Positions 18,765 to 62,889 of a stretch of DNA of 64,000 nt are shown in pieces. The stretch spans positions 64,001 to 128,000 of the forward strand of contig JBDRKL010000004.1 in NCBI GenBank assembly GCA_043814055.1. Reading direction: 5' to 3'. The position numbers and the translations under genes are program-made. Origin of the DNA: an archaeon. GTDB taxonomy: Archaea; Undinarchaeota; Undinarchaeia; Undinarchaeales; JBDRKL01. A model generated the notes under the pieces. That model was not told the DNA's origin. It did not search any database and was given only the letters and a program-made list of their open reading frames with translations. Every line of letters begins with the position of its first letter. Within the stretch, counting starts at the first letter, position 1.

Positions 18765-20207
18765 ATGGACCTTACCTTGAAGCAAACCGAAGAGCTAGTA
18801 TGGGAGCTCCCAAAAACTGGCGAAATGCTTGTTCCTGGAAGAATCTACGGCGACGAAGAAATCGTGAAGCACCTTAACAATGACGTGAAAGCCGGAAAGG
18901 ACTGGAACGCTCTGAAGCAGGTTTACAACGTGGCGTGCCTGCCAGGAATTCAAAAAGCGTCGCTCGCGATGCCAGACGTGCACCCAGGATATGGCTTTCC
19001 AATCGGCGGTGTCGGGGCATTTGACACTGAAACCGGGGTAATTTCAGTTGCAGGAGTTGGCTTTGATATCAACTGCGGAGTCCGGACTTTAAAGACACCG
19101 CTCAAAAAGGATGATGTTGAAAAGAAAAAGAAAGAGCTCGCTGAAGTTTTATTCAGGGTAATCCCAGCTGGACTCGGCTCAACCGGCGACATCCGCCTGA
19201 GCATAGACCAGATTGACGAAGTGCTGGTAAATGGTGCTAAGTACTCAGTAGAAAATGGATATGGCTTAAAGGAAGACCTTGAATTCATTGAAGAAAATGG
19301 AAAAATCGCAAATGCAAATCCTGAGAATGTCTCACGAACCGCGAAGCAGAGGCAGTTCAAGCAGATAGGCACGCTCGGCTCTGGGAATCATTATCTTGAA
19401 GTGCAGTATGTTGATGAAATCTTTGACGAGGTGGCTGCAAAAGCATATGGGCTGGAAAAAGGCCAAATCCTGGTTTCAATTCACTGCGGCTCCCGCGCGC
19501 TCGGCCACCAAATCGGAACTGACTACCTCAAAACTTTGGAAGCTGCGTCAAAGAAATACAAAATCCCAATCCGCGAGAAAGAGCTTGTATGCGCCCCGTT
19601 CACGAGCGAAGAGGGCCAGCAGTACTTCACCGCAATGAACTGCGGAATAAACTGCGCGTTTGCGAACCGCCAGGCGCTTGCTCACTTGACGCGGAAGGGT
19701 TTCACAGAAGTATTTGGTCTTGGAGAAAAAGAAGTTGAAACCTTTTACGAAATCGGGCATAATACCTGCAAGCTTGAGGAGCACGACGGCAAAAAGCTCA
19801 TCGTGCACAGGAAAGGCGCAACAAGAGCGTTCGGCCCTGGGCGAAAAGAAGTGCCGAAAAAATACCGAGAAATCGGCCAGCCAGTCCTGGTCGGCGGGAC
19901 AATGGGGACGTGCTCTTACATACTCCACGGGACTCAGAAAGGGATGGACGAGACCTTCGGAAGCGCGTGCCACGGGGCAGGGAGAAATATGAGCCGCCAG
20001 CAGGCCAAGCGCGAGTACTTCGGGGAAACAGTTATAAAAGAGCTCGCCGCAAAGGGCATAATAATCAAGGGTCATTCAAAGTCCGGAGTTTCAGAGGAAG
20101 CGCCAGGTGCCTACAAGGACGTTACTGAAGTGGTTGACGTAATGCATACTTCAGGAATTGCGAAGAAAGTTGTGAAAGTTAAACCTTTAATATCAATAAA
20201 GGGATAG
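18765..20207 (+). CDS. rtcB: RNA-splicing ligase RtcB
   Basis: MPDVHPGYGFPIGG, DINCG, GSGNHYLE, HCGSR, HRKGAT, HGAGR and EEAPGAYK. Confidence 0.97.
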   Translation: MDLTLKQTEELVWELPKTGEMLVPGRIYGDEEIVKHLNNDVKAGKDWNALKQVYNVACLPGIQKASLAMPDVHPGYGFPIGGVGAFDTETGVISVAGVGFDINCGVRTLKTPLKKDDVEKKKKELAEVLFRVIPAGLGSTGDIRLSIDQIDEVLVNGAKYSVENGYGLKEDLEFIEENGKIANANPENVSRTAKQRQFKQIGTLGSGNHYLEVQYVDEIFDEVAAKAYGLEKGQILVSIHCGSRALGHQIGTDYLKTLEAASKKYKIPIREKELVCAPFTSEEGQQYFTAMNCGINCAFANRQALAHLTRKGFTEVFGLGEKEVETFYEIGHNTCKLEEHDGKKLIVHRKGATRAFGPGRKEVPKKYREIGQPVLVGGTMGTCSYILHGTQKGMDETFGSACHGAGRNMSRQQAKREYFGETVIKELAAKGIIIKGHSKSGVSEEAPGAYKDVTEVVDVMHTSGIAKKVVKVKPLISIKG

Positions 20208-47762: not shown

Positions 47763-48392
47763 ATGGCAAGGGAAACAGTTGACAAGTGGAAGAGCAAGAA
47801 ATTCTTTGATGTTGTAGCCCCGCCGCTATTCAGGAACGCTGTCATAGGGCAGACAATCGCATCAGACATTCGCAAAGTCCCGGGCCGAATAGTAATGGCC
47901 AACTACAGCACAATCATAGGCGATCCGAACTCAAGGAACAACAAGGTCAAGCTCAAGTTCAAAATCACAGGTGTCAAGGGCGAGAAGGCAGAGACAGAGT
48001 TCCTTGGTCACGCGCTTGTCCAGGACTATCAGCGCAGTTTGGCGAGGCGCAGGACGAGCAAGGTATACAAGAATCAGGTAGTCACCACAAAGGACGGAAA
48101 AAGACTTCGCGTGAAATCAATTATTGTTACAACTAGGCAGGTTAAGAAGTCAATGAAGAGCGAGCTTGGCAAGAAACTTCTTGAGTTCATGGCTGAGGAT
48201 GCAAAGCAGTACAATTACAATGAATTCATCAATGACGCAGTTTCTGGCAGGATTTCAATGCGAATGAAGAAAGGGCTTTCCAAGTTCTACCCGCTCAGGC
48301 ACGCAGTGGTTGAAAAGACCGAAGTTATTAAGGAAGCTGTGAAGGCTGAGCCGAAGGTTGAAGAGAAGCCTGCAGAAGAGAAGAAGGAATAG
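47763..48392 (+). CDS. rps3ae: Ribosomal protein S3Ae (eS1)
   Basis: DKWKSKK.F.V.AP..F...Y.RSL.RRRTSK...V.TKDG...YPLR. Confidence 0.95.
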   Translation: MARETVDKWKSKKFFDVVAPPLFRNAVIGQTIASDIRKVPGRIVMANYSTIIGDPNSRNNKVKLKFKITGVKGEKAETEFLGHALVQDYQRSLARRRTSKVYKNQVVTTKDGKRLRVKSIIVTTRQVKKSMKSELGKKLLEFMAEDAKQYNYNEFINDAVSGRISMRMKKGLSKFYPLRHAVVEKTEVIKEAVKAEPKVEEKPAEEKKE

Positions 48393-48427
48393 GAAGCTTT
48401 ATTAATTCTATAAGACACCATATTACT

Positions 48428-56413: not shown

Positions 56414-57472
56414 ATGAAAGTAAAACTCAAGAATCAGTCAAAAAACTTTCGAACAGTTTGGTTTGAGTCTCCTCAAGTTGTTATGATTGACCAGCCAAAG
56501 CTCCCTTTCAAGTTCGCGATAAAGCGGTTCAAGACCTACAAGGAAACAGCAAAAGCAATTTCTGACATGATTGTGCGCGGAGCTCCTGCAATCGGCGCAA
56601 CAGCCGCATACGCAACTGCGCAGGCAGTGCTTGAGTTCAAGGGCGAGGATGTGAAAAAGTTTGACGATTATATGCGCACAGCGTGCAAGCTCATCAAGTC
56701 TGCGCGGCCGACTGCGATTGACCTCGCGCACGCGACAGACCGAGTTTACAACGCGGTAATCCGCTGGGATAATCTCAAGCAGGCCAAGATGATTGCAGTA
56801 GATGAAGCTGAGAAAATTGCTGATGAGTATATTTCAATGAGCCGAAGAATTGGAGAGCACGGAGCAGAATTAATTCAGCACCGCGCGAGAATTCTCACTC
56901 ACTGCAACGCTGGCTGGCTTGCTACAGTTGATTGGGGTACTGCGCTCGCTCCAATATTTACCGCACATAGGTCCGGGACAAAGCTCTTCGTGTTCGTTGA
57001 CGAGACCCGGCCAAGGCTTCAGGGTGCAAGATTAACTGCTTGGGAGCTCGCGCAGGAAGGAATTGACCACGCGATAATCGCTGACAACGCAGCAGGATAT
57101 TATATGCGCAAGGGTGAAGTGGATATGTGCATAGTCGGCGCGGACAGAATCGCAGCGAATGGCGACGTGGCAAACAAAATTGGCACCTATGAAAAAGCAG
57201 TTGTTGCGAAAGAGCACGGAATTCCATTTTATGTTGCTGCGCCAAAGCCGACTTTTGACTTTGAGTGCAAGACAGGCGATGAAATTCCAATTGAAGAGCG
57301 GAATGAGAATGAAGTTAAGAAGATGTGGGGCAAAGAAGGCATAATAAGTGTTGCAAATCCAGGCTCGCCTGCGAAAAATCCAGCTTTTGACATCACTCCA
57401 TCCAAGTTTGTGACAGGTTATATTACTGAAATTGGGATTTTGAAGGCCAATCAGCTCTCAAAACTTGGTTGA
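56414..57472 (+). CDS. mtnA: S-methyl-5-thioribose-1-phosphate isomerase (eIF2B-like family)
   Basis: DQ.KLP, MIVRGAPAIG, RPTA, THCNAG.LAT..WGTA, ETRP.LQGARLTAWEL, GADRI, NPAFD.TP. Confidence 0.88.
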   Translation: MKVKLKNQSKNFRTVWFESPQVVMIDQPKLPFKFAIKRFKTYKETAKAISDMIVRGAPAIGATAAYATAQAVLEFKGEDVKKFDDYMRTACKLIKSARPTAIDLAHATDRVYNAVIRWDNLKQAKMIAVDEAEKIADEYISMSRRIGEHGAELIQHRARILTHCNAGWLATVDWGTALAPIFTAHRSGTKLFVFVDETRPRLQGARLTAWELAQEGIDHAIIADNAAGYYMRKGEVDMCIVGADRIAANGDVANKIGTYEKAVVAKEHGIPFYVAAPKPTFDFECKTGDEIPIEERNENEVKKMWGKEGIISVANPGSPAKNPAFDITPSKFVTGYITEIGILKANQLSKLG

Positions 57473-57624
57473 TTCTCTTCAAATTTTCACTCTTTTTATT
57501 GCTATTTATTCCCCATATTCATAATAAATATCTTCATAGCGGTTTCACCAAGTTCCAAAACCTGCTTTTCCCAAGGCAAACTTATTTATATACTATATAC
57601 GTACTGATTCCAAGGTGAATTTGA

Positions 57625-60600
57625 ATGGCCCCTAAATTAATGAAAATTGGAATATTAGTTGTACTTATAACACTCTTTGTCGCGCAGGCCGCATACGCGA
57701 ATTGCACATACTCCGGCACAGGGGATTGGATAATTGATTCCACTGAAAGCTGTGCCAATACCAGCGAAGTAATAACCCTTAATGGAAACCTTACTATTAA
57801 TGGAGAACTTAATTTCACCAACGTGACGCTCAAGGTCAATGCAACAACGCAGGGTGGTTTTAAGATATTCCTTAACGGCTCTACAACAAAATTCAATGTT
57901 TTCGGCGGCTCAAACATAACCAACGAGAGTGCAGCCAACAGCTACAACATTACTGTTGACAATGGAACCCTCATAATAAACAATTCAGTTATTGAGATGC
58001 TGAACAACTTAACTCTAAGCAATAGCGCCTTAGCAAACTTCACAAACGTAACTTTCAACAGAAGCAACATAAGCATAGCTGACTCAACCTCAAACCTCAC
58101 TGTAAAATGGTATGTTGACGTCTATGTAAATGACACAAACGGAGTCAACACAAGCGCAACAGTTGTAATAAACGATACTGCCAATAACAATCACTTCTCT
58201 GGTGCGAGCAGTGCCTCAACCGGCATGATTACCCAGCAGGTCCTGCCTGAATTCTGGCGCAATAACGCAACTTGGTATTATTATTCATTGTATAATATAT
58301 CTGCATCCAATGCCTGGGGCAGCAATAATACTACTTTAAACCTGACCTCGGACAAAACAGGCTCAAATAATATTACACTCACAGTTACTGCAGTGCCAAA
58401 CTGCACAATAACTGCTCTAAACACTTCAATAACTCTGCCACCACTCGGCTTGCAGATAGTTGAAGTAAACATTACAAACACAGGCGGGCTTACAGACAAT
58501 TTCACCCTGAATACGTCACTCCCAACTGGGTGGTCCTATGACATTGTGAACAGCACAGTCTATAACATGGTGGCAGGTTCATACACTTCAGCAAACTTGC
58601 GCATAATTGTTGGTTCAAATGGCCAGCCCGACTCAATGCAGACGCTTACCCTCTACTGTTATTCGCACAGAAACGCTGGTGCGTTCAATACCTCTACAAT
58701 GAATGTAACAGTTGACGACGCTCTGGAATATGCAACTATAACTCAAAACGCAACGGACTGGATTGAAGGTAACGAGAGCAGTCAGGGAATATGGGGGCCG
58801 TCAAATTACACAACTGCATGGGTCCTCTGGACTCTGAACACAACCGCAAATTCAAGCATCACAAACATCACGAACACAACCTCAATCTTCAACGCAACCC
58901 AGCACGCAAGCGGTTACTGGCTTGATGATGTTTATGAAAATAATACTACAACTGCCATGGTCATAATCGCATATAAGGAAGCAGGATATGCAAACAATAG
59001 CACCAATGGGAATCTTACTCTAGCTGCAAACTATTTGATGACCCAGGCAAAAGTTGATGCCAACCATGCCTGGCCATCAACAACAAACAATGCTTACACC
59101 ACTGCCGTAATCCTAACAGCACTTTACAAAGAAGGGACCTACAATTCTAATACCAGTGCAATAAATGCAACAAAATGGCTTGTTGGAAATCTGACAAACG
59201 CCTCAACAGGCAATTACACCTATTGGAGCTGGGGTAATAATACCACAAACACCTCTTGGGGAATTTGGGCTACAAAATCCGGTTATGGTTACGGGAACTT
59301 GAATAGTACTGAGCAAACCAAGCGGAATGCAGCAGTACTCTGGCTCAAGCACAACCAATCCAGAGACGGCTACTTCGGCTCCAGCGCAAACATCTATGAC
59401 ACTGCAATGGCTGTAATCGCACTTAAAGCAGAAGGTGTTGCTCTTACTGACACATGGGAAATTGACATTGACAAGAATTTCAGCACAACCTATGACCGCT
59501 ACAATGCCTCGCTTGAGCAGGCAATTTACTGGATATACACGCAGAGAAACACCTCATCCGGCGGCTGGGGACTTTCTCCAACAAGCGCGCTGGGCTCTTC
59601 ACTTGGAACACTTGCTTTAGGCGGCTCTTATGCAACTGTGAGCGGACAAGTTCAGGGCTCTGGGAATGCATCTGGCTTCAACATCACTGGGGTAAATGTC
59701 ACATTCGGCTCATACACTGCACAGACAAACAGCTCAGGTCATTACAAGCTGAACGTGCCTGCAGGCACCTACAGCTGGGATGTAGCTCATATAAACTTCA
59801 CTGCTAACTCAAGCACTGGTTTTGTTCTGGGCAACGGCGAGTCCAGAACTCAAAACATTCTGATGCTGCCAGGGATAAACATTACTGGCTTCTACGGTAC
59901 GGAGGAAACGTCAAACAAATATCTCTCAACAGCTTCTCCTGCAGCCAGCGCTACATACAACATCTCTGCAACCGCTGTCTACAAATACAATACCAGTAGG
60001 GGTGTAAATGGAACCTACTACTACAGCTTAAACGTAAGCACAGTCTCCGGTCCATATGCGTCAAATGCCACAACTGGATATTTCATGCAGGGCGGATTGA
60101 CCGCACCGGCCGTAACCGTACAAACGGCATACACAACCAATCTCTCAATCAATGACTCATACGGAAGCTACGCTGAAACAGCAAAAACTCTTACTGTAAC
60201 AGTTGTAGCAACCGGCGACCCAGCAACTGACTCAAGTGGCGGTCCACCTGGATCCACCTCAGACTACGGCCTTTCATTCCTTGAATACAGCCACGCAATC
60301 AAGCTTGCACAAGGTGAGACCCAAACAATTAAAGTCAAGATAAAGAACTCAGGGACGAAATCTCTTGAAAACGTTGCCCTCTCTATAGTAAGCATAAACA
60401 GCGACTGGTACTCCTCAAAAGTTTCAGGCACCAGCTCTGGAATTGAAGGGATGCTGGACAGCGGGGAAGTAGTGACCTATGATGTCACGTTCAACATACC
60501 TGCAACCGCGGATCCAAAAACCTACTCAGGCACCTGGCGCGTAAAGGACTCTGGGGGCAACGCGCTCGCAGAGAAGGCAATGAACCTGACAATCACTGGA

Positions 60601-61038
60601 ACTGCAGTTACAACTGGTAATGGCACCCAAAACGAAACCAAAATAGGTGGGCTCGGGCTGACCCTGCCGGACATCTCTGGTTCAGGCGTTGTGATTATGC
60701 TTATAATCGTGCTCGGTGGTGCTGCAGCCGGCTTTGTAATCTGGTACAAGTTCTTCCGGATGGTGCCAATCTCAGACATAAAAAAGAACATAACAATGTA
60801 CTCATCGGGCGGCGCCCGCCTTGAGGGTGTTGTGAAGTCCGTGACTGAAACCAAGAAGGGTAAGGTCTTTATGATAGCTGACCACACTGGCAAACTGCAC
60901 GTGCGCTATCCATACTACACAACAATTGAGAAAGGCGACCTGATTCGCTCAAAGGGCGTTATGAAAACCTACAAAGAAGTGCCGTACATGGATGCAGTTG
61001 ACCTGCTCAGAGTTACGGTGAAGCACAAAGGGATGTAG
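57625..61038 (+). CDS. Large N/T-rich surface glycoprotein with alpha/alpha-barrel (QW-repeat-like) and Ig-like domains, TM anchor and cytoplasmic OB fold
   Basis: Signal peptide, very many NxS/T sequons, Q..(S/D)G.W/F repeats, C-terminal TM helix followed by F.I.D.TG.L OB-like domain. Confidence 0.75.
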   Translation: MAPKLMKIGILVVLITLFVAQAAYANCTYSGTGDWIIDSTESCANTSEVITLNGNLTINGELNFTNVTLKVNATTQGGFKIFLNGSTTKFNVFGGSNITNESAANSYNITVDNGTLIINNSVIEMLNNLTLSNSALANFTNVTFNRSNISIADSTSNLTVKWYVDVYVNDTNGVNTSATVVINDTANNNHFSGASSASTGMITQQVLPEFWRNNATWYYYSLYNISASNAWGSNNTTLNLTSDKTGSNNITLTVTAVPNCTITALNTSITLPPLGLQIVEVNITNTGGLTDNFTLNTSLPTGWSYDIVNSTVYNMVAGSYTSANLRIIVGSNGQPDSMQTLTLYCYSHRNAGAFNTSTMNVTVDDALEYATITQNATDWIEGNESSQGIWGPSNYTTAWVLWTLNTTANSSITNITNTTSIFNATQHASGYWLDDVYENNTTTAMVIIAYKEAGYANNSTNGNLTLAANYLMTQAKVDANHAWPSTTNNAYTTAVILTALYKEGTYNSNTSAINATKWLVGNLTNASTGNYTYWSWGNNTTNTSWGIWATKSGYGYGNLNSTEQTKRNAAVLWLKHNQSRDGYFGSSANIYDTAMAVIALKAEGVALTDTWEIDIDKNFSTTYDRYNASLEQAIYWIYTQRNTSSGGWGLSPTSALGSSLGTLALGGSYATVSGQVQGSGNASGFNITGVNVTFGSYTAQTNSSGHYKLNVPAGTYSWDVAHINFTANSSTGFVLGNGESRTQNILMLPGINITGFYGTEETSNKYLSTASPAASATYNISATAVYKYNTSRGVNGTYYYSLNVSTVSGPYASNATTGYFMQGGLTAPAVTVQTAYTTNLSINDSYGSYAETAKTLTVTVVATGDPATDSSGGPPGSTSDYGLSFLEYSHAIKLAQGETQTIKVKIKNSGTKSLENVALSIVSINSDWYSSKVSGTSSGIEGMLDSGEVVTYDVTFNIPATADPKTYSGTWRVKDSGGNALAEKAMNLTITGTAVTTGNGTQNETKIGGLGLTLPDISGSGVVIMLIIVLGGAAAGFVIWYKFFRMVPISDIKKNITMYSSGGARLEGVVKSVTETKKGKVFMIADHTGKLHVRYPYYTTIEKGDLIRSKGVMKTYKEVPYMDAVDLLRVTVKHKGM

Positions 61039-61561
61039 CTCTTCTGCTTGGAGATATTGCAAGCTTTTCAAGTTCGCCCAGTTTAGGGTTTGTGTGCCCG
61101 CATTTCTGGCAGACAAAAACTATCTTGGAATGCTCTGGCCGCCCGTCTATGAAATCCTTGTACCTGTCCTTGATATAATTAAAATATTTCTGAGCCGCAG
61201 CCTCGGTCTTTGCTGAAAATATCATGCTCCACTCAAAATCTCCAAACAACATATAAACATCAATTACTTCAACACCCATCTCAGCAGCAACTTCTCCTCC
61301 TTTGAGTCCGCTTATTATCTTGTTCAGGCCTGCCTTGGTCGGCGGACTGGCCTTGAAAAGAACCATATAAGTGGTCCAGCCCATCTTGGTGCAGTCGGTA
61401 AGCGCTGAATATCCTATTATGACCTGCTCGTCTTCAAGAGCTTTTCTAGTTCGGAAGACTGTACTCTGGGCGCAATTTAATTTTTTAGCTATTGCAGAGT
61501 CGCTCTGCCGCGCGTCTTTCTTTAATTCCTTTAGAACTTTTTCGCGTATTTCATCTTTCAT
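61013..61561 (-). CDS. Lrp/AsnC family transcriptional regulator
   Basis: L.KDARQS...IAKKL....STV....K.LE...VI.GY. Confidence 0.88.
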   Translation of the reverse strand: MKDEIREKVLKELKKDARQSDSAIAKKLNCAQSTVFRTRKALEDEQVIIGYSALTDCTKMGWTTYMVLFKASPPTKAGLNKIISGLKGGEVAAEMGVEVIDVYMLFGDFEWSMIFSAKTEAAAQKYFNYIKDRYKDFIDGRPEHSKIVFVCQKCGHTNPKLGELEKLAISPSRRATSLCASP

Positions 61562-61624
61562 AACTCCACAATTCTCTCAAAACTATTATTTAAAACTTTC
61601 TTTCTATGCGATCCAGTGCATAAT

Positions 61625-62152
61625 CTAATTTCGCGTCTTGCAAACTGCCTTAATCCTTTCAAGGACAAGCGGGTTTTTCAAAACATCCTCGCCCTTCTTT
61701 TTCAAAACTCCAACCCCGCCGATAAAAATCATCTGGTGCGCTCTGGCGAATTTTTCCATTGCTGTTATTGTGCCCTGTATTGAATCCTTGCTCGCTTCTC
61801 CGGATGCTCCTGCAATTACGTTCTTCCCCCTCAGCGAAAGTTTTTGGTACAAATAATTAGTCCTGTCCATAAAGTTTTTCATAAGACCTGAGACATTGTC
61901 AAAATAGCAAGGGCTCCCAAGCACAATCGTGTCTGCCTTTAGCAGTTCAACCTCAAGCGTTTTCATACCATCCCGGATTACACACTTCTTGGTTTCCTGG
62001 CATTTGTCACAGCCATTGCACTGCTTCAGTTTAAGGTCTCTCAGCGCGATGAATTTCCTCTTCGTGCCAAGCTCTTTCATAATCGCCTTGACAAGCTTGT
62101 CAGTGTTGCCGTTCTCCACGGGGCTTCCTGATATGCCGAGTATGTAGGTCAT
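61625..62152 (-). CDS. Iron-sulfur flavoprotein / flavodoxin family
   Basis: ISGSP..NGNT, CNGCDKC...C, GSP.YF..VSG.MKNF.DR; start at MTYILG. Confidence 0.9.
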   Translation of the reverse strand: MTYILGISGSPVENGNTDKLVKAIMKELGTKRKFIALRDLKLKQCNGCDKCQETKKCVIRDGMKTLEVELLKADTIVLGSPCYFDNVSGLMKNFMDRTNYLYQKLSLRGKNVIAGASGEASKDSIQGTITAMEKFARAHQMIFIGGVGVLKKKGEDVLKNPLVLERIKAVCKTRN

Positions 62153-62186
62153 GAGTAAAATGGTTTGGGTATAAACCAATTTGCAC

Positions 62187-62246
62187 GGTAGCGGTGCAGC
62201 ATCACCAATTTGATGCACCGCACTTTCCCTCCGCAAGTAGGCGGAG
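62187..62246. mobile_element. Family-A element abutting the CCA end of tRNA-Gly
   Basis: GGTAG-CGGTGCA..TGCACCG hairpin with loop GCATCACCAATTT as at 48914, then CACTT-core CTCCGC-AAGTAG-GCGGAG (62229-62246). Confidence 0.8.
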
Positions 62247-62427
62247 TGGTGCGCCGGCCGGGACTTGAACCCGGGTCGCAGCCTGTTTGCAACCCACTTC
62301 GCAGATTTACTGCCGCGAAGCGGCTCCGAATCGCGTAGCGATTCGTTTTTTGGTCGAGCTTTTTGCGCGCGTAAGCGCGGAAAAAGGTCGTGGCAAGGCT
62401 GAATCATAGCCGCTAGACCACCAGCGC
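62247..62427 (-). tRNA. tRNA-Gly(GCC) with 106-nt intron (62285-62390) at 37/38; CCA encoded
   Basis: Acceptor GCGCTGG/CCGGCGC, anticodon stem CAGCC/GGCTG, canonical BHB with central helix UUGC/GCAA. Confidence 0.93.
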
Positions 62428-62466
62428 ATTGACTCTTACAGAGTCTTTTTCAATACTTAAGAGTTC

Positions 62467-62541
62467 TGGTGGGCCCGACCGGAATTGAACCGGTGACCTT
62501 TTCCACGTCAAGGAAATGTCATACCACTAGACCCCGGGCCC
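62467..62541 (-). tRNA. tRNA-Val(GAC), intronless; CCA encoded
   Basis: GGGCCCG/CGGGCCC acceptor stem, loop TTGACGT, GGTTCAATTCC T-arm. Confidence 0.95.
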
Positions 62542-62889
62542 GTATCCAGGGTTTAGCACCCTACCCTGGAAGTATTATAGAGGGGTTGGAGTGTATAAAT
62601 ATATTTGGTAGGCATCAGTTTACCATGGCAGCATTCCAACGAGCGCGAGAACCAGAATAACAATAAGTGCTAAACTGCTGAAAGCTGCAATCTCTACTCC
62701 AAATTCTGGTCCTTTTAACAGGGTCAACGCAAGTATTACAATGAGTCCATTGCAGACCACTACGAGTAGAGGGTTATGATGCCCTTTCCGGTTTAGAATC
62801 ATGATTGTTCAAATAATTGTCTTTGCTTTTATATATTATTTTCTAGACTGGAGTATACAGAACGCGTATGTCCCCAAGCCCGCTCAACA

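What the first reader, a model, noticed from the sequence alone, without database searches (positions are those of the whole stretch)
62346..62390. The tRNA-Gly intron carries a hairpin module that also occurs as a free intergenic insert
Seen (+ strand): TTTTTTGGT-CGA-G-CTTTTT-G-CGCGC-GTAA-GCGCG-G-AAAAAG-G-TCG at 62346-62390 vs TTTTTTGGT-CCA-G-CTTTT-G-CGC...GCG-G-AAAAG-G-TGG at 48501-48546. Both G-G mismatches are retained and CGA/TCG changes to CCA/TGG. A more diverged inverted relative lies at ~48651-48688. The module boundary coincides with the 5' splice site. Inference: either miniature elements use spliced BHB introns as safe havens, or excised introns (circularised by RtcB) seed insertions, which bears on how archaeal tRNA introns are gained.
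Basis: partly seen in the sequence, partly recalled or inferred. Interest (0 to 1): 0.78.

Follow-up and report, generated by a model that had tools for sequence, protein, structure and literature searches.

The report
Gene-end hairpin cassette inside tRNA introns
The hairpin at the start of this archaeon's tRNA-Gly intron is one copy of a conserved palindromic cassette that otherwise sits flush against the ends of tRNA and other stable-RNA genes in many small archaea, which gives a concrete sequence handle on the open question of how archaeal tRNA introns are gained.

Summary
Observation confirmed and much extended. tRNA-Gly(GCC) (window 62247-62427, minus strand) has a 106-nt canonical intron. 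Its first 45 nt are a hairpin module that recurs at 48501-48546 (two-arm pattern: 2 window hits, 0 in 100 shuffles). A covariance model finds 35 copies in this 0.98-Mb genome and 0-10 in each of 16 phylum mates. An exact two-arm pattern finds at least 111 stretches in other, nearly all archaeal, mostly DPANN-labelled genomes. The conserved end of the module abuts RNA boundaries. These are 3' ends of tRNAs, RNase P RNA, SRP RNA and a C/D sRNA, some tRNA 5' ends and start or stop codons, and the end of exon 1 in introns of tRNA-Gly, -Met and -Val. In 21 of 22 intron cases across genomes it has one orientation and starts at tRNA position 34-43. There its first arm pairs with the intron's 3' end to form the inner helix of the BHB splicing motif. 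Free copies share only the 5' two-thirds of the intron. No transposase, integrase or reverse transcriptase was found (genome 82% complete). Best reading: a gene-boundary (terminator-like) hairpin cassette reused as the core of a family of BHB introns. It is neither a random safe-haven insert nor a retro-copied whole intron. Function and direction of transfer are inferred, not shown.

The parts
62247..62427 (-). tRNA-Gly(GCC) gene: exon 1 62391-62427, intron 62285-62390 (106 nt, after position 37), exon 2 with encoded CCA 62247-62284
   Evidence: ARAGORN -i; sequence; exons align to intronless tRNA-Gly(GCC) of 7 relatives
62346..62390 (-). The module of the finding. On the tRNA strand: arm 1 (62381-62390, contains T5) directly after the 5' splice site, GC apex hairpin (62366-62379), arm 2 (62355-62364), then ACC and an A6 run (62346-62354)
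   Evidence: leave-out HMM 32.8 bits; CM R1 59.7 bits, top hit in the genome
62327..62345 (-). Second intron hairpin. On the + strand it is followed by T6 (terminator-like, antisense to the tRNA). Shared with the trailer of a C/D sRNA on contig C12
   Evidence: (C12:49090-49131, 90% over query 64-105)
62285..62320 (-). Intron 3' third: third hairpin (62297-62320), G-rich arm 3 (62290-62300) that pairs with arm 1, four bases that pair with anticodon-loop positions 32-35, and the 3' bulge. Found elsewhere only in the tRNA-Met intron
   Evidence: strict BHB test passes with central 4 bp, outer 5 bp, inner 5 bp
48501..48546 (+). Intergenic module copy A (CCA/TGG foot, T4/A4 arms), 8 nt downstream of a C/D-box sRNA, in inverted orientation relative to it
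   Evidence: CM 44.9 bits
48428..48492 (+). C/D-box sRNA candidate. Its last 48 nt (48445-48492) are repeated at 48554-48601
   Evidence: weak Rfam hit sR14, E 0.5, 48428-48491; box-like motifs and repeat read from sequence
48554..48601 (+). Partial duplicate of the sRNA (lacks the 5' box), bracketed by module A on its left and module B on its right
48600..48689 (+). Long-form module B in gene-sense orientation: arm 1 flush with the end of the duplicate, A5, two nested hairpins, then arm 2, ACC and A5.
   Evidence: 48689-48674, 12.8 bits; same long form at C4:51042-51133 and C12:67493-67583
62467..62541 (-). tRNA-Val(GAC), 39 nt upstream of tRNA-Gly on the same strand with no T-run between them. 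The first T5 of this two-tRNA unit is arm 1 of the intron module
18918..20204 (+). RtcB RNA ligase gene (the splicing ligase). The single EndA gene lies on another contig (C6:30540-30794, 177-aa ORF)

Best explanation
The hairpin is a copy of a conserved archaeal gene-boundary cassette. Read on the strand of the adjoining gene it has four parts: arm 1 (CAACC or CGACC followed by T5), a variable palindromic apex, arm 2 (A5 followed by GCTTG), then ACC and A5. At most sites arm 1 lies within 0-3 nt of the 3' end of a stable-RNA gene, where its T-run is in the position of an archaeal oligo-T terminator. The opposite strand carries two more T-runs, so the cassette most likely acts as a two-way transcription stop or insulator (inferred).

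In tRNA-Gly, -Met and -Val the same cassette lies flush against exon 1. A short 3' adaptor completes the intron: a G-rich arm 3 plus four bases complementary to the anticodon loop. Arm 1 pairs with arm 3 to give the inner helix of a canonical hBHBh' motif. The endonuclease cuts in the two 3-nt bulges and RtcB joins the exons (structure shown; cleavage inferred). Arm 1 can alternatively pair with arm 2, so the module hairpin competes with the splicing fold.

The intron is therefore built as 'RNA-gene trailer plus adaptor'. I infer that copies of the cassette are moved or duplicated by recombination together with pieces of RNA-gene ends. A copy landing in the anticodon loop can persist once an adaptor lets it be spliced out.
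For: Family and numbers:
- CM R1 finds 35 hits in G000 and 0-10 in each of 16 phylum mates; 12 of 17 genomes have a hit.
- The exact pattern finds at least 111 stretches in genome contigs. Of the 80 listed rows, 79 bear archaeal labels. It finds 1 stretch in viral contigs.

Context in G000 (35 CM hits, my sorting):
- 2 in introns.
- 10 directly after tRNA 3' ends.
- 4 further tandem copies there.
- 3 after RNase P RNA, SRP RNA and a C/D sRNA.
- 4 after tRNA end fragments.
- 1 beside the window's sRNA.
- 11 other or unknown, some after ORF stops or between convergent ORFs.

Context across genomes (123 exact-pattern occurrences):
- 22 inside intron-bearing tRNAs, 21 of them in one orientation starting at position 34-43.
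- 9 after tRNA 3' ends (gap -2 to +2).
- 5 at tRNA 5' ends.
- 3 near tRNAs.
- 84 other.

Hairpin constraint:
- 84% of cells paired against 77.2% in shuffles (0 of 500 reach it).
- Covariation score 0.131 against 0.059; slid controls at most 0.073.
- Foot triplet complementary in 97 of 98 distinct modules.

BHB:
- A strict motif plus an ARAGORN-valid tRNA after in-silico splicing was obtained for 13 of 123 occurrences. In the best-fitting call for 12 of these 13 the 5' splice site lies 0-5 nt before the module, or 1 nt inside it.

Intron-to-trailer kinship:
- The Met-intron module differs from the tRNA-Ile trailer module at 2 of the first 44 positions.
- The Gly-intron module is 89% identical to the copy at C2:8801.

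Orthology: G011 has an intron with the same ends and architecture, but a different module subtype, in the same gene. Seven other relatives are intronless.

Splicing enzymes are present.
Against: - No RNA data, so termination, read-through and splicing are all unobserved.
- T5 on the sense strand of 476 long ORFs is barely depleted (observed/expected 0.91; T6 0.71). Many tRNA genes here have no nearby T5. T5 alone is therefore not a strong stop and the terminator reading is positional only.
- A plain terminator does not need the conserved feet or a paired apex. Wobble pairs are too few (7 against 3) to say which strand, or whether RNA or DNA, forms the hairpin.
- The terminator-like scan of 48300-62600 is not above chance overall (14 found, 14.9 expected).
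- Some copies lie 1-2 nt before start codons or tRNA 5' ends, which fits a promoter or leader role as well.
- The BHB fold costs 12.0 (Gly) and 2.8 (Met) kcal/mol more than the computed MFE.
- No enzyme for moving copies was found.
- The 11 'other' G000 copies and the 84 'other' pattern hits are not explained case by case. ARAGORN misses non-canonical introns, so these classes are rough.
- The CM was trained in part (14 of 37 rows) on G000, which inflates the contrast of 35 against at most 10.
Confidence: 0.5

Rival explanations
1. A selfish non-autonomous palindromic repeat (MITE or REP-like) that inserts, through a hairpin-recognising enzyme acting in trans, next to or into structured RNA genes. 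It survives in tRNAs only where it can be spliced out and has no host function.
For: - Imperfect palindrome with conserved feet and a free apex.
- Multi-copy, with an expansion in G000 (35 against at most 10 hits).
- Near-identical copies in different contexts.
- One genome holds 8 copies, several sharing about 40 nt of left flank.
- Tandem [RNA-end fragment + module] arrays and long flanking duplications.
- The inner part is flipped between two tRNA-Leu D-loop introns.
- Module subtypes differ between the orthologous G000 and G011 introns.
- Patchy exact-pattern distribution: 9 copies in G000 and 0 in 16 phylum mates.
Against: - No Y1 transposase, TnpB-type domain, tyrosine recombinase or reverse transcriptase in G000 (genome 82% complete).
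- Only 2-8 exact copies per genome elsewhere, including 2 in a complete 1.0-Mb genome.
- The same 25 fixed bases occur across many phylum labels, which suggests constraint. My exact pattern forces this, so it is ascertainment-biased.
- Flush placement at RNA ends and the fixed orientation in introns need an added targeting rule.
Confidence: 0.22
2. The 'intron' is the spacer of two adjacent tRNA half genes. Transcription of exon 1 stops at the T5 of arm 1. The 3' half is transcribed from a start inside the spacer (the outer A-run as TATA-like element about 25 nt upstream). The halves anneal through arm 1/arm 3 and the anticodon stem and are trans-spliced, as in known split tRNAs. Read-through gives an ordinary intron with the same product.
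For: - Exon 1 is followed by exactly what follows complete stable-RNA genes.
- Arm 1/arm 3 complementarity of 8-9 positions in Gly, Met and G011-Gly, read.
- Upstream of tRNA-Glu, truncated 5' fragments each start 25 nt after the outer A-run of the preceding cassette.
- tRNA genes here have TATA-like boxes ending 24-28 nt before position +1.
Against: - T5 is hardly avoided in ORFs.
- Introns as short as 42-52 nt leave no room for a separate promoter.
- The distance from the A-run to exon 2 is not conserved (about 60, 64 and 82 nt in Gly, Met and G011-Gly).
- The A-run is a poor match to the TATA-like boxes seen upstream of tRNAs.
- No RNA evidence.
Confidence: 0.1
3. An RNA-level processing signal: the hairpin is transcribed and an endonuclease cuts at its foot, defining RNA 3' ends, 5' ends and the 5' splice site.
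For: The conserved end of the module coincides with three kinds of RNA processing site. Pairing is conserved.
Against: - The offset between RNA end and foot varies from -2 to +3 nt.
- The same DNA boundary would need a cut at the 5' foot on one strand's RNA and at the 3' foot on the other's.
- I found no BHB between leader and trailer of tRNA-Ile when reading by hand.
- RNase P RNA is present.
- Wobble pairs are rare.
Confidence: 0.08
4. Excised, RtcB-circularised introns are the source, and free copies are retro-inserted introns.
For: In G000 the free copies start exactly where the intron starts, and in 9 of 10 tRNA trailers they follow an encoded CCA.
Against: - Free copies lack the intron's 3' third.
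- No RT was found.
- In other genomes the module follows the discriminator plus 2 nt without CCA.
- Copies also follow RNase P RNA, SRP RNA and ORF stops.
Confidence: 0.04

Closest known systems
Intron families shared between different tRNA genes ('large-scale intron transposition', Thermoproteales; Fujishima et al. 2010, seen only as cited in passages of PMC4090602, and of the 2026 Asgard preprint)
   Same: Related intron sequences occur in different tRNA genes of one genome (Gly and Met along their whole length; Val for the module). A second family is shared by Trp and two Arg genes. All are constrained by the BHB motif.
   Different: Here the shared intron core also occurs outside introns, flush with the ends of stable-RNA genes, and across many phylum labels. 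Those papers state that the mechanism of transposition or arrival is unknown.
Split tRNA genes joined by trans-splicing (Nanoarchaeum, Caldivirga; recalled, and abstract of PMC3218864 in the listing)
   Same: A 5' part followed by a sequence complementary to the sequence preceding the 3' part. The two together form a BHB.
   Different: The halves here are adjacent and collinear. Separate transcription is not shown. The complementary stretch is a generic T-run arm, not a gene-specific GC-rich leader.
Mobile-element model of tRNA gene disruption in Caldiarchaeum (PMC3293823, abstract read)
   Same: Intron gain is linked with scattered or duplicated tRNA fragments next to inserted DNA.
   Different: That insert is a 1.8-kb element encoding a recombinase. 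Here the inserts are 45-110 nt and no recombinase was found.
REP/BIME-type palindromic repeats and archaeal MITE-like elements (REPs recalled; MITE-like sRNA element of Pyrobaculum calidifontis, passages of PMC6009581)
   Same: Short imperfect palindromes in many copies, at gene ends, sometimes linked with small-RNA gene duplication.
   Different: No cognate transposase was found. Copy number is low in most genomes. The cassette has a precise role in a splicing motif.
Archaeal oligo-T transcription terminators (recalled general knowledge)
   Same: A T5 or longer run a few nucleotides after the RNA 3' end, with T-runs on both strands between convergent genes.
   Different: Conserved non-T feet, a paired apex and covarying bases are not part of that definition.

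Membership tests
Canonical archaeal BHB tRNA intron | Interrupts the tRNA at 37/38, and removal yields a cloverleaf tRNA | tested here: met
   ARAGORN -i. In-silico splicing gives tRNA-Gly(GCC) with the junction at position 37. Exons match intronless orthologues.
Canonical archaeal BHB tRNA intron | Two 3-nt bulges separated by a 4-bp helix and flanked by helices (hBHBh') | tested here: met
   Central 4 of 4 bp, outer 5 bp, inner 5 bp contiguous; up to 8 of 9 positions with one mismatch when read. For the Met intron the central helix is 3 bp plus A.A.
Canonical archaeal BHB tRNA intron | Splicing endonuclease and RtcB ligase encoded | tested here: met
   PF01974 at 110 bits in a 177-aa ORF. 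RtcB at 558 bits.
Canonical archaeal BHB tRNA intron | The intron is actually excised from the RNA | not testable with these tools
   No sequencing run was listed.
MITE (non-autonomous DNA transposon) | Terminal inverted repeats, no coding capacity, multiple copies | tested here: met
MITE (non-autonomous DNA transposon) | Short target-site duplications of fixed length | tested here: not met
   The intron copies have no flanking direct repeat. Elsewhere the duplications are 7-48 nt pieces of the adjoining RNA gene and vary in length.
MITE (non-autonomous DNA transposon) | A related autonomous element or transposase in the genome | tested here: not met
   No PF01797, PF07282, PF00589 or PF00078. 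The genome is 82% complete, so absence is not proven.
REP elements mobilised by RAYT | A Y1 (RAYT) transposase gene accompanies the repeats | tested here: not met
   (0 hits; the control rang in 6 of 14 genomes).
Oligo-T terminator | A T-run directly downstream of the mature 3' end | tested here: met
   T5 starts 3-8 nt after the 3' ends of 10 tRNAs, RNase P RNA, SRP RNA and a C/D sRNA.
Oligo-T terminator | Transcripts end there; such runs are avoided inside genes | tested here: inconclusive
   Transcript ends are not testable. T5 observed/expected is 0.91 and T6 is 0.71 in 476 ORFs.
Split tRNA gene | Halves transcribed separately from their own promoters | not testable with these tools
   No RNA data. 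Candidate A-run geometry only.
Split tRNA gene | Halves encoded at separate loci | tested here: not met
   The exons are 106 nt apart on one strand.

The most novel reading that the evidence does not exclude
A single conserved cassette, otherwise the trailer of stable-RNA genes, is the portable core from which many DPANN-type archaea repeatedly build tRNA introns: cassette plus a 10-20-nt adaptor gives a spliceable BHB intron. It would be the first sequence-defined vehicle of archaeal tRNA intron gain. Cassette-bearing genes such as this tRNA-Gly may be living intermediates between continuous and split tRNA genes, with exon 1 ending at its own terminator.
Probability: 0.25. Interest if true: 0.85.

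Novelty: new variant of a known kind. Interest (0 to 1): 0.7.

Why it matters
How archaeal tRNA introns arrive is an acknowledged open question. [quoted passage not shown] A 2026 preprint on Asgard archaea tested copying, mobile elements and reverse transcription and found no general route (passages).

Here the 5' core of a whole intron family has a recognisable life outside introns, at the ends of tRNA, RNase P, SRP and C/D RNA genes. It is accompanied by duplicated fragments of those genes. That turns the question into testable predictions:
- Where the cassette ends transcripts.
- Whether exon 1 is made as a separate RNA.
- Whether cassette copies move between trailers and anticodon loops in natural populations.

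It also matters for annotation. Default tRNA finders missed this gene, and several cassette-bearing tRNAs with long or non-canonical introns are likely still unannotated.

Tried and rejected
- Chance similarity is rejected.
- IS200/IS605-type, tyrosine-recombinase and retro-element mobilisation: no gene found in G000. This is not proof of absence at 82% completeness.
- Promoter for the 3' half in the AT-rich loop of the third intron hairpin: the loop ends 18-21 nt before exon 2, whereas tRNA promoters here end 24-28 nt before +1. A start there would fall inside exon 2, so this is rejected.
- Left-arm T-run as a TATA box with a start at the module edge: the spacing fits G000 copies (interior 13-17 nt) but not the many copies with 6-11-nt interiors. 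Not adopted.
- BHB between leader and trailer of cassette-flanked tRNA-Ile: none found by hand.
- Strand of a functional RNA hairpin from wobble pairs: 7 against 3, too few.
- Metagenome scan for the C/D sRNA: 0 matches.
- Metagenome scan for exon 1 plus arm 1: 74 stretches, 0 of 74 a tRNA. All were chance hits and the scan was wasted.
- Viral contigs: 1 stretch, between ORFs, uninformative.
- Sequencing runs: none was listed and no RNA holder was listed.
- Literature searches found no paper describing this cassette. The library lacks most subscription papers, Fujishima 2010 was not readable, and supplements are closed.
- No protein searches, structure predictions or complex predictions were needed.
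The phylum holds 17 genomes in the collection.

Full report
**1. What is at the coordinates**

The minus strand of 62247-62427 encodes tRNA-Gly(GCC) with a 106-nt intron after position 37 (ARAGORN with introns; sequence). ARAGORN without introns and Rfam both missed the gene.

On the tRNA strand the intron has these parts, in order:
- Arm 1: five bases and a T5 run.
- A GC hairpin.
- Arm 2: an A5 run and a near-complement of arm 1.
- ACC and an A6 run.
- A second hairpin.
- A third hairpin with an AT-rich loop.
- A G-rich stretch (arm 3).
- Six bases up to the 3' splice site.

The copy at 48501-48546 has the same layout, with a CCA/TGG foot in place of CGA/TCG and with T4/A4 arms.

**2. Is it more than chance?**

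- A pattern demanding both arms hits the window twice and none of 100 shuffles.
- An HMM built only from 13 copies on other contigs scores the intron copy at 32.8 bits, against a best of 17.2 in 100 shuffled windows.
- The same HMM aligns only one arm of the 48501 copy (10.2 bits) and of the third copy (12.8 bits), which is within the shuffle range.
- A covariance model with the hairpin (R1, built from 37 copies) scores the two window copies at 59.7 and 44.9 bits.

**3. The family**

- R1 finds 35 copies in this 979,685-bp, 82%-complete genome. It finds 0-10 in each of the 16 other genomes held for the phylum, and 12 of 17 genomes have a hit. Fourteen of the 37 training rows are from G000.
- The exact two-arm pattern occurs 9 times in G000 and in none of the 16 phylum mates.
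Of the 80 listed rows, 79 carry archaeal labels, mostly Woesearchaeota, Iainarchaeum, Nanoarchaeota, Parvarchaeota, or 'uncultured Methanosarcinales' MAGs of about 1 Mb.
- Five of those genomes hold 2-8 exact copies each.
- Pairing is conserved. 84% of cells are paired against 77.2% in column shuffles (0 of 500 reach it). The covariation score is 0.131 against 0.059 and at most 0.073 for slid partners.
- The middle base of the foot triplet is complementary in 97 of 98 distinct modules. As few as two switches may underlie this.
- Apex stems differ from copy to copy and are almost purely Watson-Crick (238 such pairs beyond the first position, 5 wobble pairs). This gives no hint of the functional strand.

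**4. Where the copies sit**

My sorting of the 35 G000 hits:

| Context | Copies |
|---|---|
| tRNA introns (Gly, Met) | 2 |
| Directly after tRNA 3' ends (Ile, Ser-GGA, His, Leu-GAG, Leu-TAA, Trp, Ala-TGC, Thr-CGT, Thr-TGT, and a probable tRNA at C10:136226-136450) | 10 |
| Extra tandem copies behind these | 4 |
| After RNase P RNA, SRP RNA and a C/D sRNA (Rfam) | 3 |
| After truncated tRNA 5' or 3' fragments | 4 |
| The window's copy beside a C/D sRNA | 1 |
| Other; some follow ORF stops by 0-1 nt or lie between convergent ORFs (rough ORF calls) | 11 |

This sorting draws. A variant of the module also opens the tRNA-Val(TAC) intron.

Of 123 exact-pattern occurrences in all genomes:

| Context | Occurrences |
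|---|---|
| Inside ARAGORN intron-bearing tRNAs | 22 |
| Following a tRNA 3' end with a gap of -2 to +2 | 9 |
| Touching a tRNA 5' end | 5 |
| Near a tRNA | 3 |
| Unclassified | 84 |

Of the 22 intron cases, 21 have arm 1 first and start at tRNA position 34-43. The unclassified group includes copies 1-2 nt before long ORFs and copies right after stop codons. It also includes tRNAs with non-canonical introns that ARAGORN cannot call.

Phylum mates show the same contexts:
- Introns in G001, G003, G007, G009 and G011.
- A tRNA-Leu trailer in G007.
- Tandem arrays of [tRNA 3' fragment + module] in G008, G012 and G016.

**5. The window's 'free' copy**

The region reads as follows:
- C/D-box sRNA candidate, 48428-48492 (Rfam sR14, E 0.5 only).
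- 8 nt.
- Module A, inverted.
- 7 nt.
- A 48-nt duplicate of the sRNA's 3' part, 48554-48601.

**6. How the intron copy works (structure shown, chemistry inferred)**

The elements are:
- Anticodon stem: 5 bp.
- Loop positions 32-35 paired with four intron bases: 4 bp.
- Bulges CA|C and AC|A.
- Arm 1 paired with arm 3: 5 contiguous pairs, and 8 of 9 positions with one mismatch.

Together these give a canonical hBHBh'.

The Met intron, homologous to the Gly intron along its whole length (78% over query positions 37-138), does the same with a 3-bp central helix. So do the Val intron and the orthologous G011 intron. In the Val and G011 introns I read the pairs by eye.

Thirteen of 123 occurrences pass a strict BHB test and yield an ARAGORN tRNA after in-silico splicing. 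In five of them the intron extends only 10-21 nt beyond the cassette.

Arm 1 can instead pair with arm 2. The BHB-enforced fold is 12.0 (Gly) and 2.8 (Met) kcal/mol above the MFE, although the MFE also misfolds the tRNA body.

One EndA gene (177-aa ORF, the size of homotetrameric enzymes as I recall them) and RtcB are present.

**7. What the cassette does outside introns (inferred)**

For a terminator or insulator role:
- Flush placement behind stable-RNA genes.
- A T5 run 3-8 nt after their ends.
- Two further T-runs on the other strand, one preceded by a hairpin.
- Frequent convergent neighbours.

Against:
- T5 is hardly avoided in ORFs (observed/expected 0.91).
- Many tRNA genes lack a nearby T5.
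- Nothing in that role explains the conserved feet or the paired apex.

A promoter or leader role is possible for copies that touch gene starts.

**8. Origin**

- The Met-intron module differs from the tRNA-Ile trailer module at 2 of 44 positions.
- Free copies match the Gly intron only over its first 68 nt.
- tRNA-Gly(GCC) is intronless in seven relatives. It carries an intron with the same ends, but another module subtype, in G011.
- Cassettes come with duplicated pieces of the neighbouring RNA gene. Examples are 12-19-nt tRNA 5' fragments upstream of the Glu and His genes, 7-18-nt 3' fragments, and the 48-nt sRNA piece.
- No mobilising enzyme was found.

I therefore favour spread by duplicative or ectopic recombination of 'RNA-end + cassette' units, with introns arising when a unit lands in the anticodon loop and gains an adaptor. 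I favour this over transposase-driven insertion, retro-insertion of introns, or fusion of split genes. None of the alternatives is excluded.

**9. Novelty**

Intron families shared among tRNAs are known, and their mechanism is stated to be unknown (passages). I found no description of this cassette, or of an intron core shared with RNA-gene trailers. The library is incomplete and supplements are closed.

Noticed in passing
G000 contigs C12:18318-18550, C3:23811-23998, C12:37675-37868: Upstream of tRNA-Glu(TTC), tRNA-Glu(CTC) and tRNA-His lie one or two truncated copies of the tRNA's first 12-19 nt. Each has its own TATA-like box and each is followed at once by a cassette. The next copy or the full gene starts about 25-31 nt after the cassette's outer A-run.
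   Followed up: partly
G000 C3:23811 (Glu-CTC), C12:152935 (Met), C10:135143 (Tyr), C10:18773 (Cys), C12:132988 (Pro-TGG), C13:16966-17377: Many tRNA genes are followed by a 68-100-nt insert made of other hairpin repeats and then a 13-20-nt duplicate of the tRNA's own 3' end. This pattern resembles integration footprints, yet no integrase was found.
   Followed up: partly
G000 C6:51029-51297 (Trp), C12:115016-115203, C12:117681-117863 (Arg-CCT), C10:136226-136450: A second, unrelated intron family (84-193 nt) is shared by tRNA-Trp, two Arg-type tRNAs (one mislabelled Pyl by ARAGORN) and a probable tRNA that ARAGORN misses.
   Followed up: no
upstream of about 8 tRNA genes in G000, e.g. window 53477-53546 before tRNA-Thr(GGT): A conserved leader element: a hairpin, then a GTCAAC-containing motif, then a short covarying hairpin ending in AGTT directly before tRNA position +1. 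tRNAs without it have TATA-like boxes ending 24-28 nt before +1, as if transcribed almost without a leader, although RNase P RNA is present (C12:3873-4205).
   Followed up: no
L031 versus L083 and L112 (tRNA-Leu genes of three other genomes): The cassette forms a 42-44-nt intron in the D-loop of tRNA-Leu. Its outer arms are the same, but the inner asymmetric part is flipped between genomes, as if inverted by recombination between the arms.
   Followed up: no
L226/L237 (G008), L231, L240, L252 (G016), L233 (G012): Tandem arrays of [16-18-nt tRNA 3' fragment + T-run + cassette + GTTCC-type linker] lie directly behind complete tRNA genes, up to two and a half units long.
   Followed up: partly
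window 53547-53664 (+): tRNA-Thr(GGT) has a 42-44-nt canonical intron without the cassette.
   Followed up: no
G000, 476 ORFs of at least 250 aa: G5 runs on the coding strand are strongly depleted (observed/expected 0.45 against codon-shuffled ORFs), far more than T5 (0.91).
   Followed up: no
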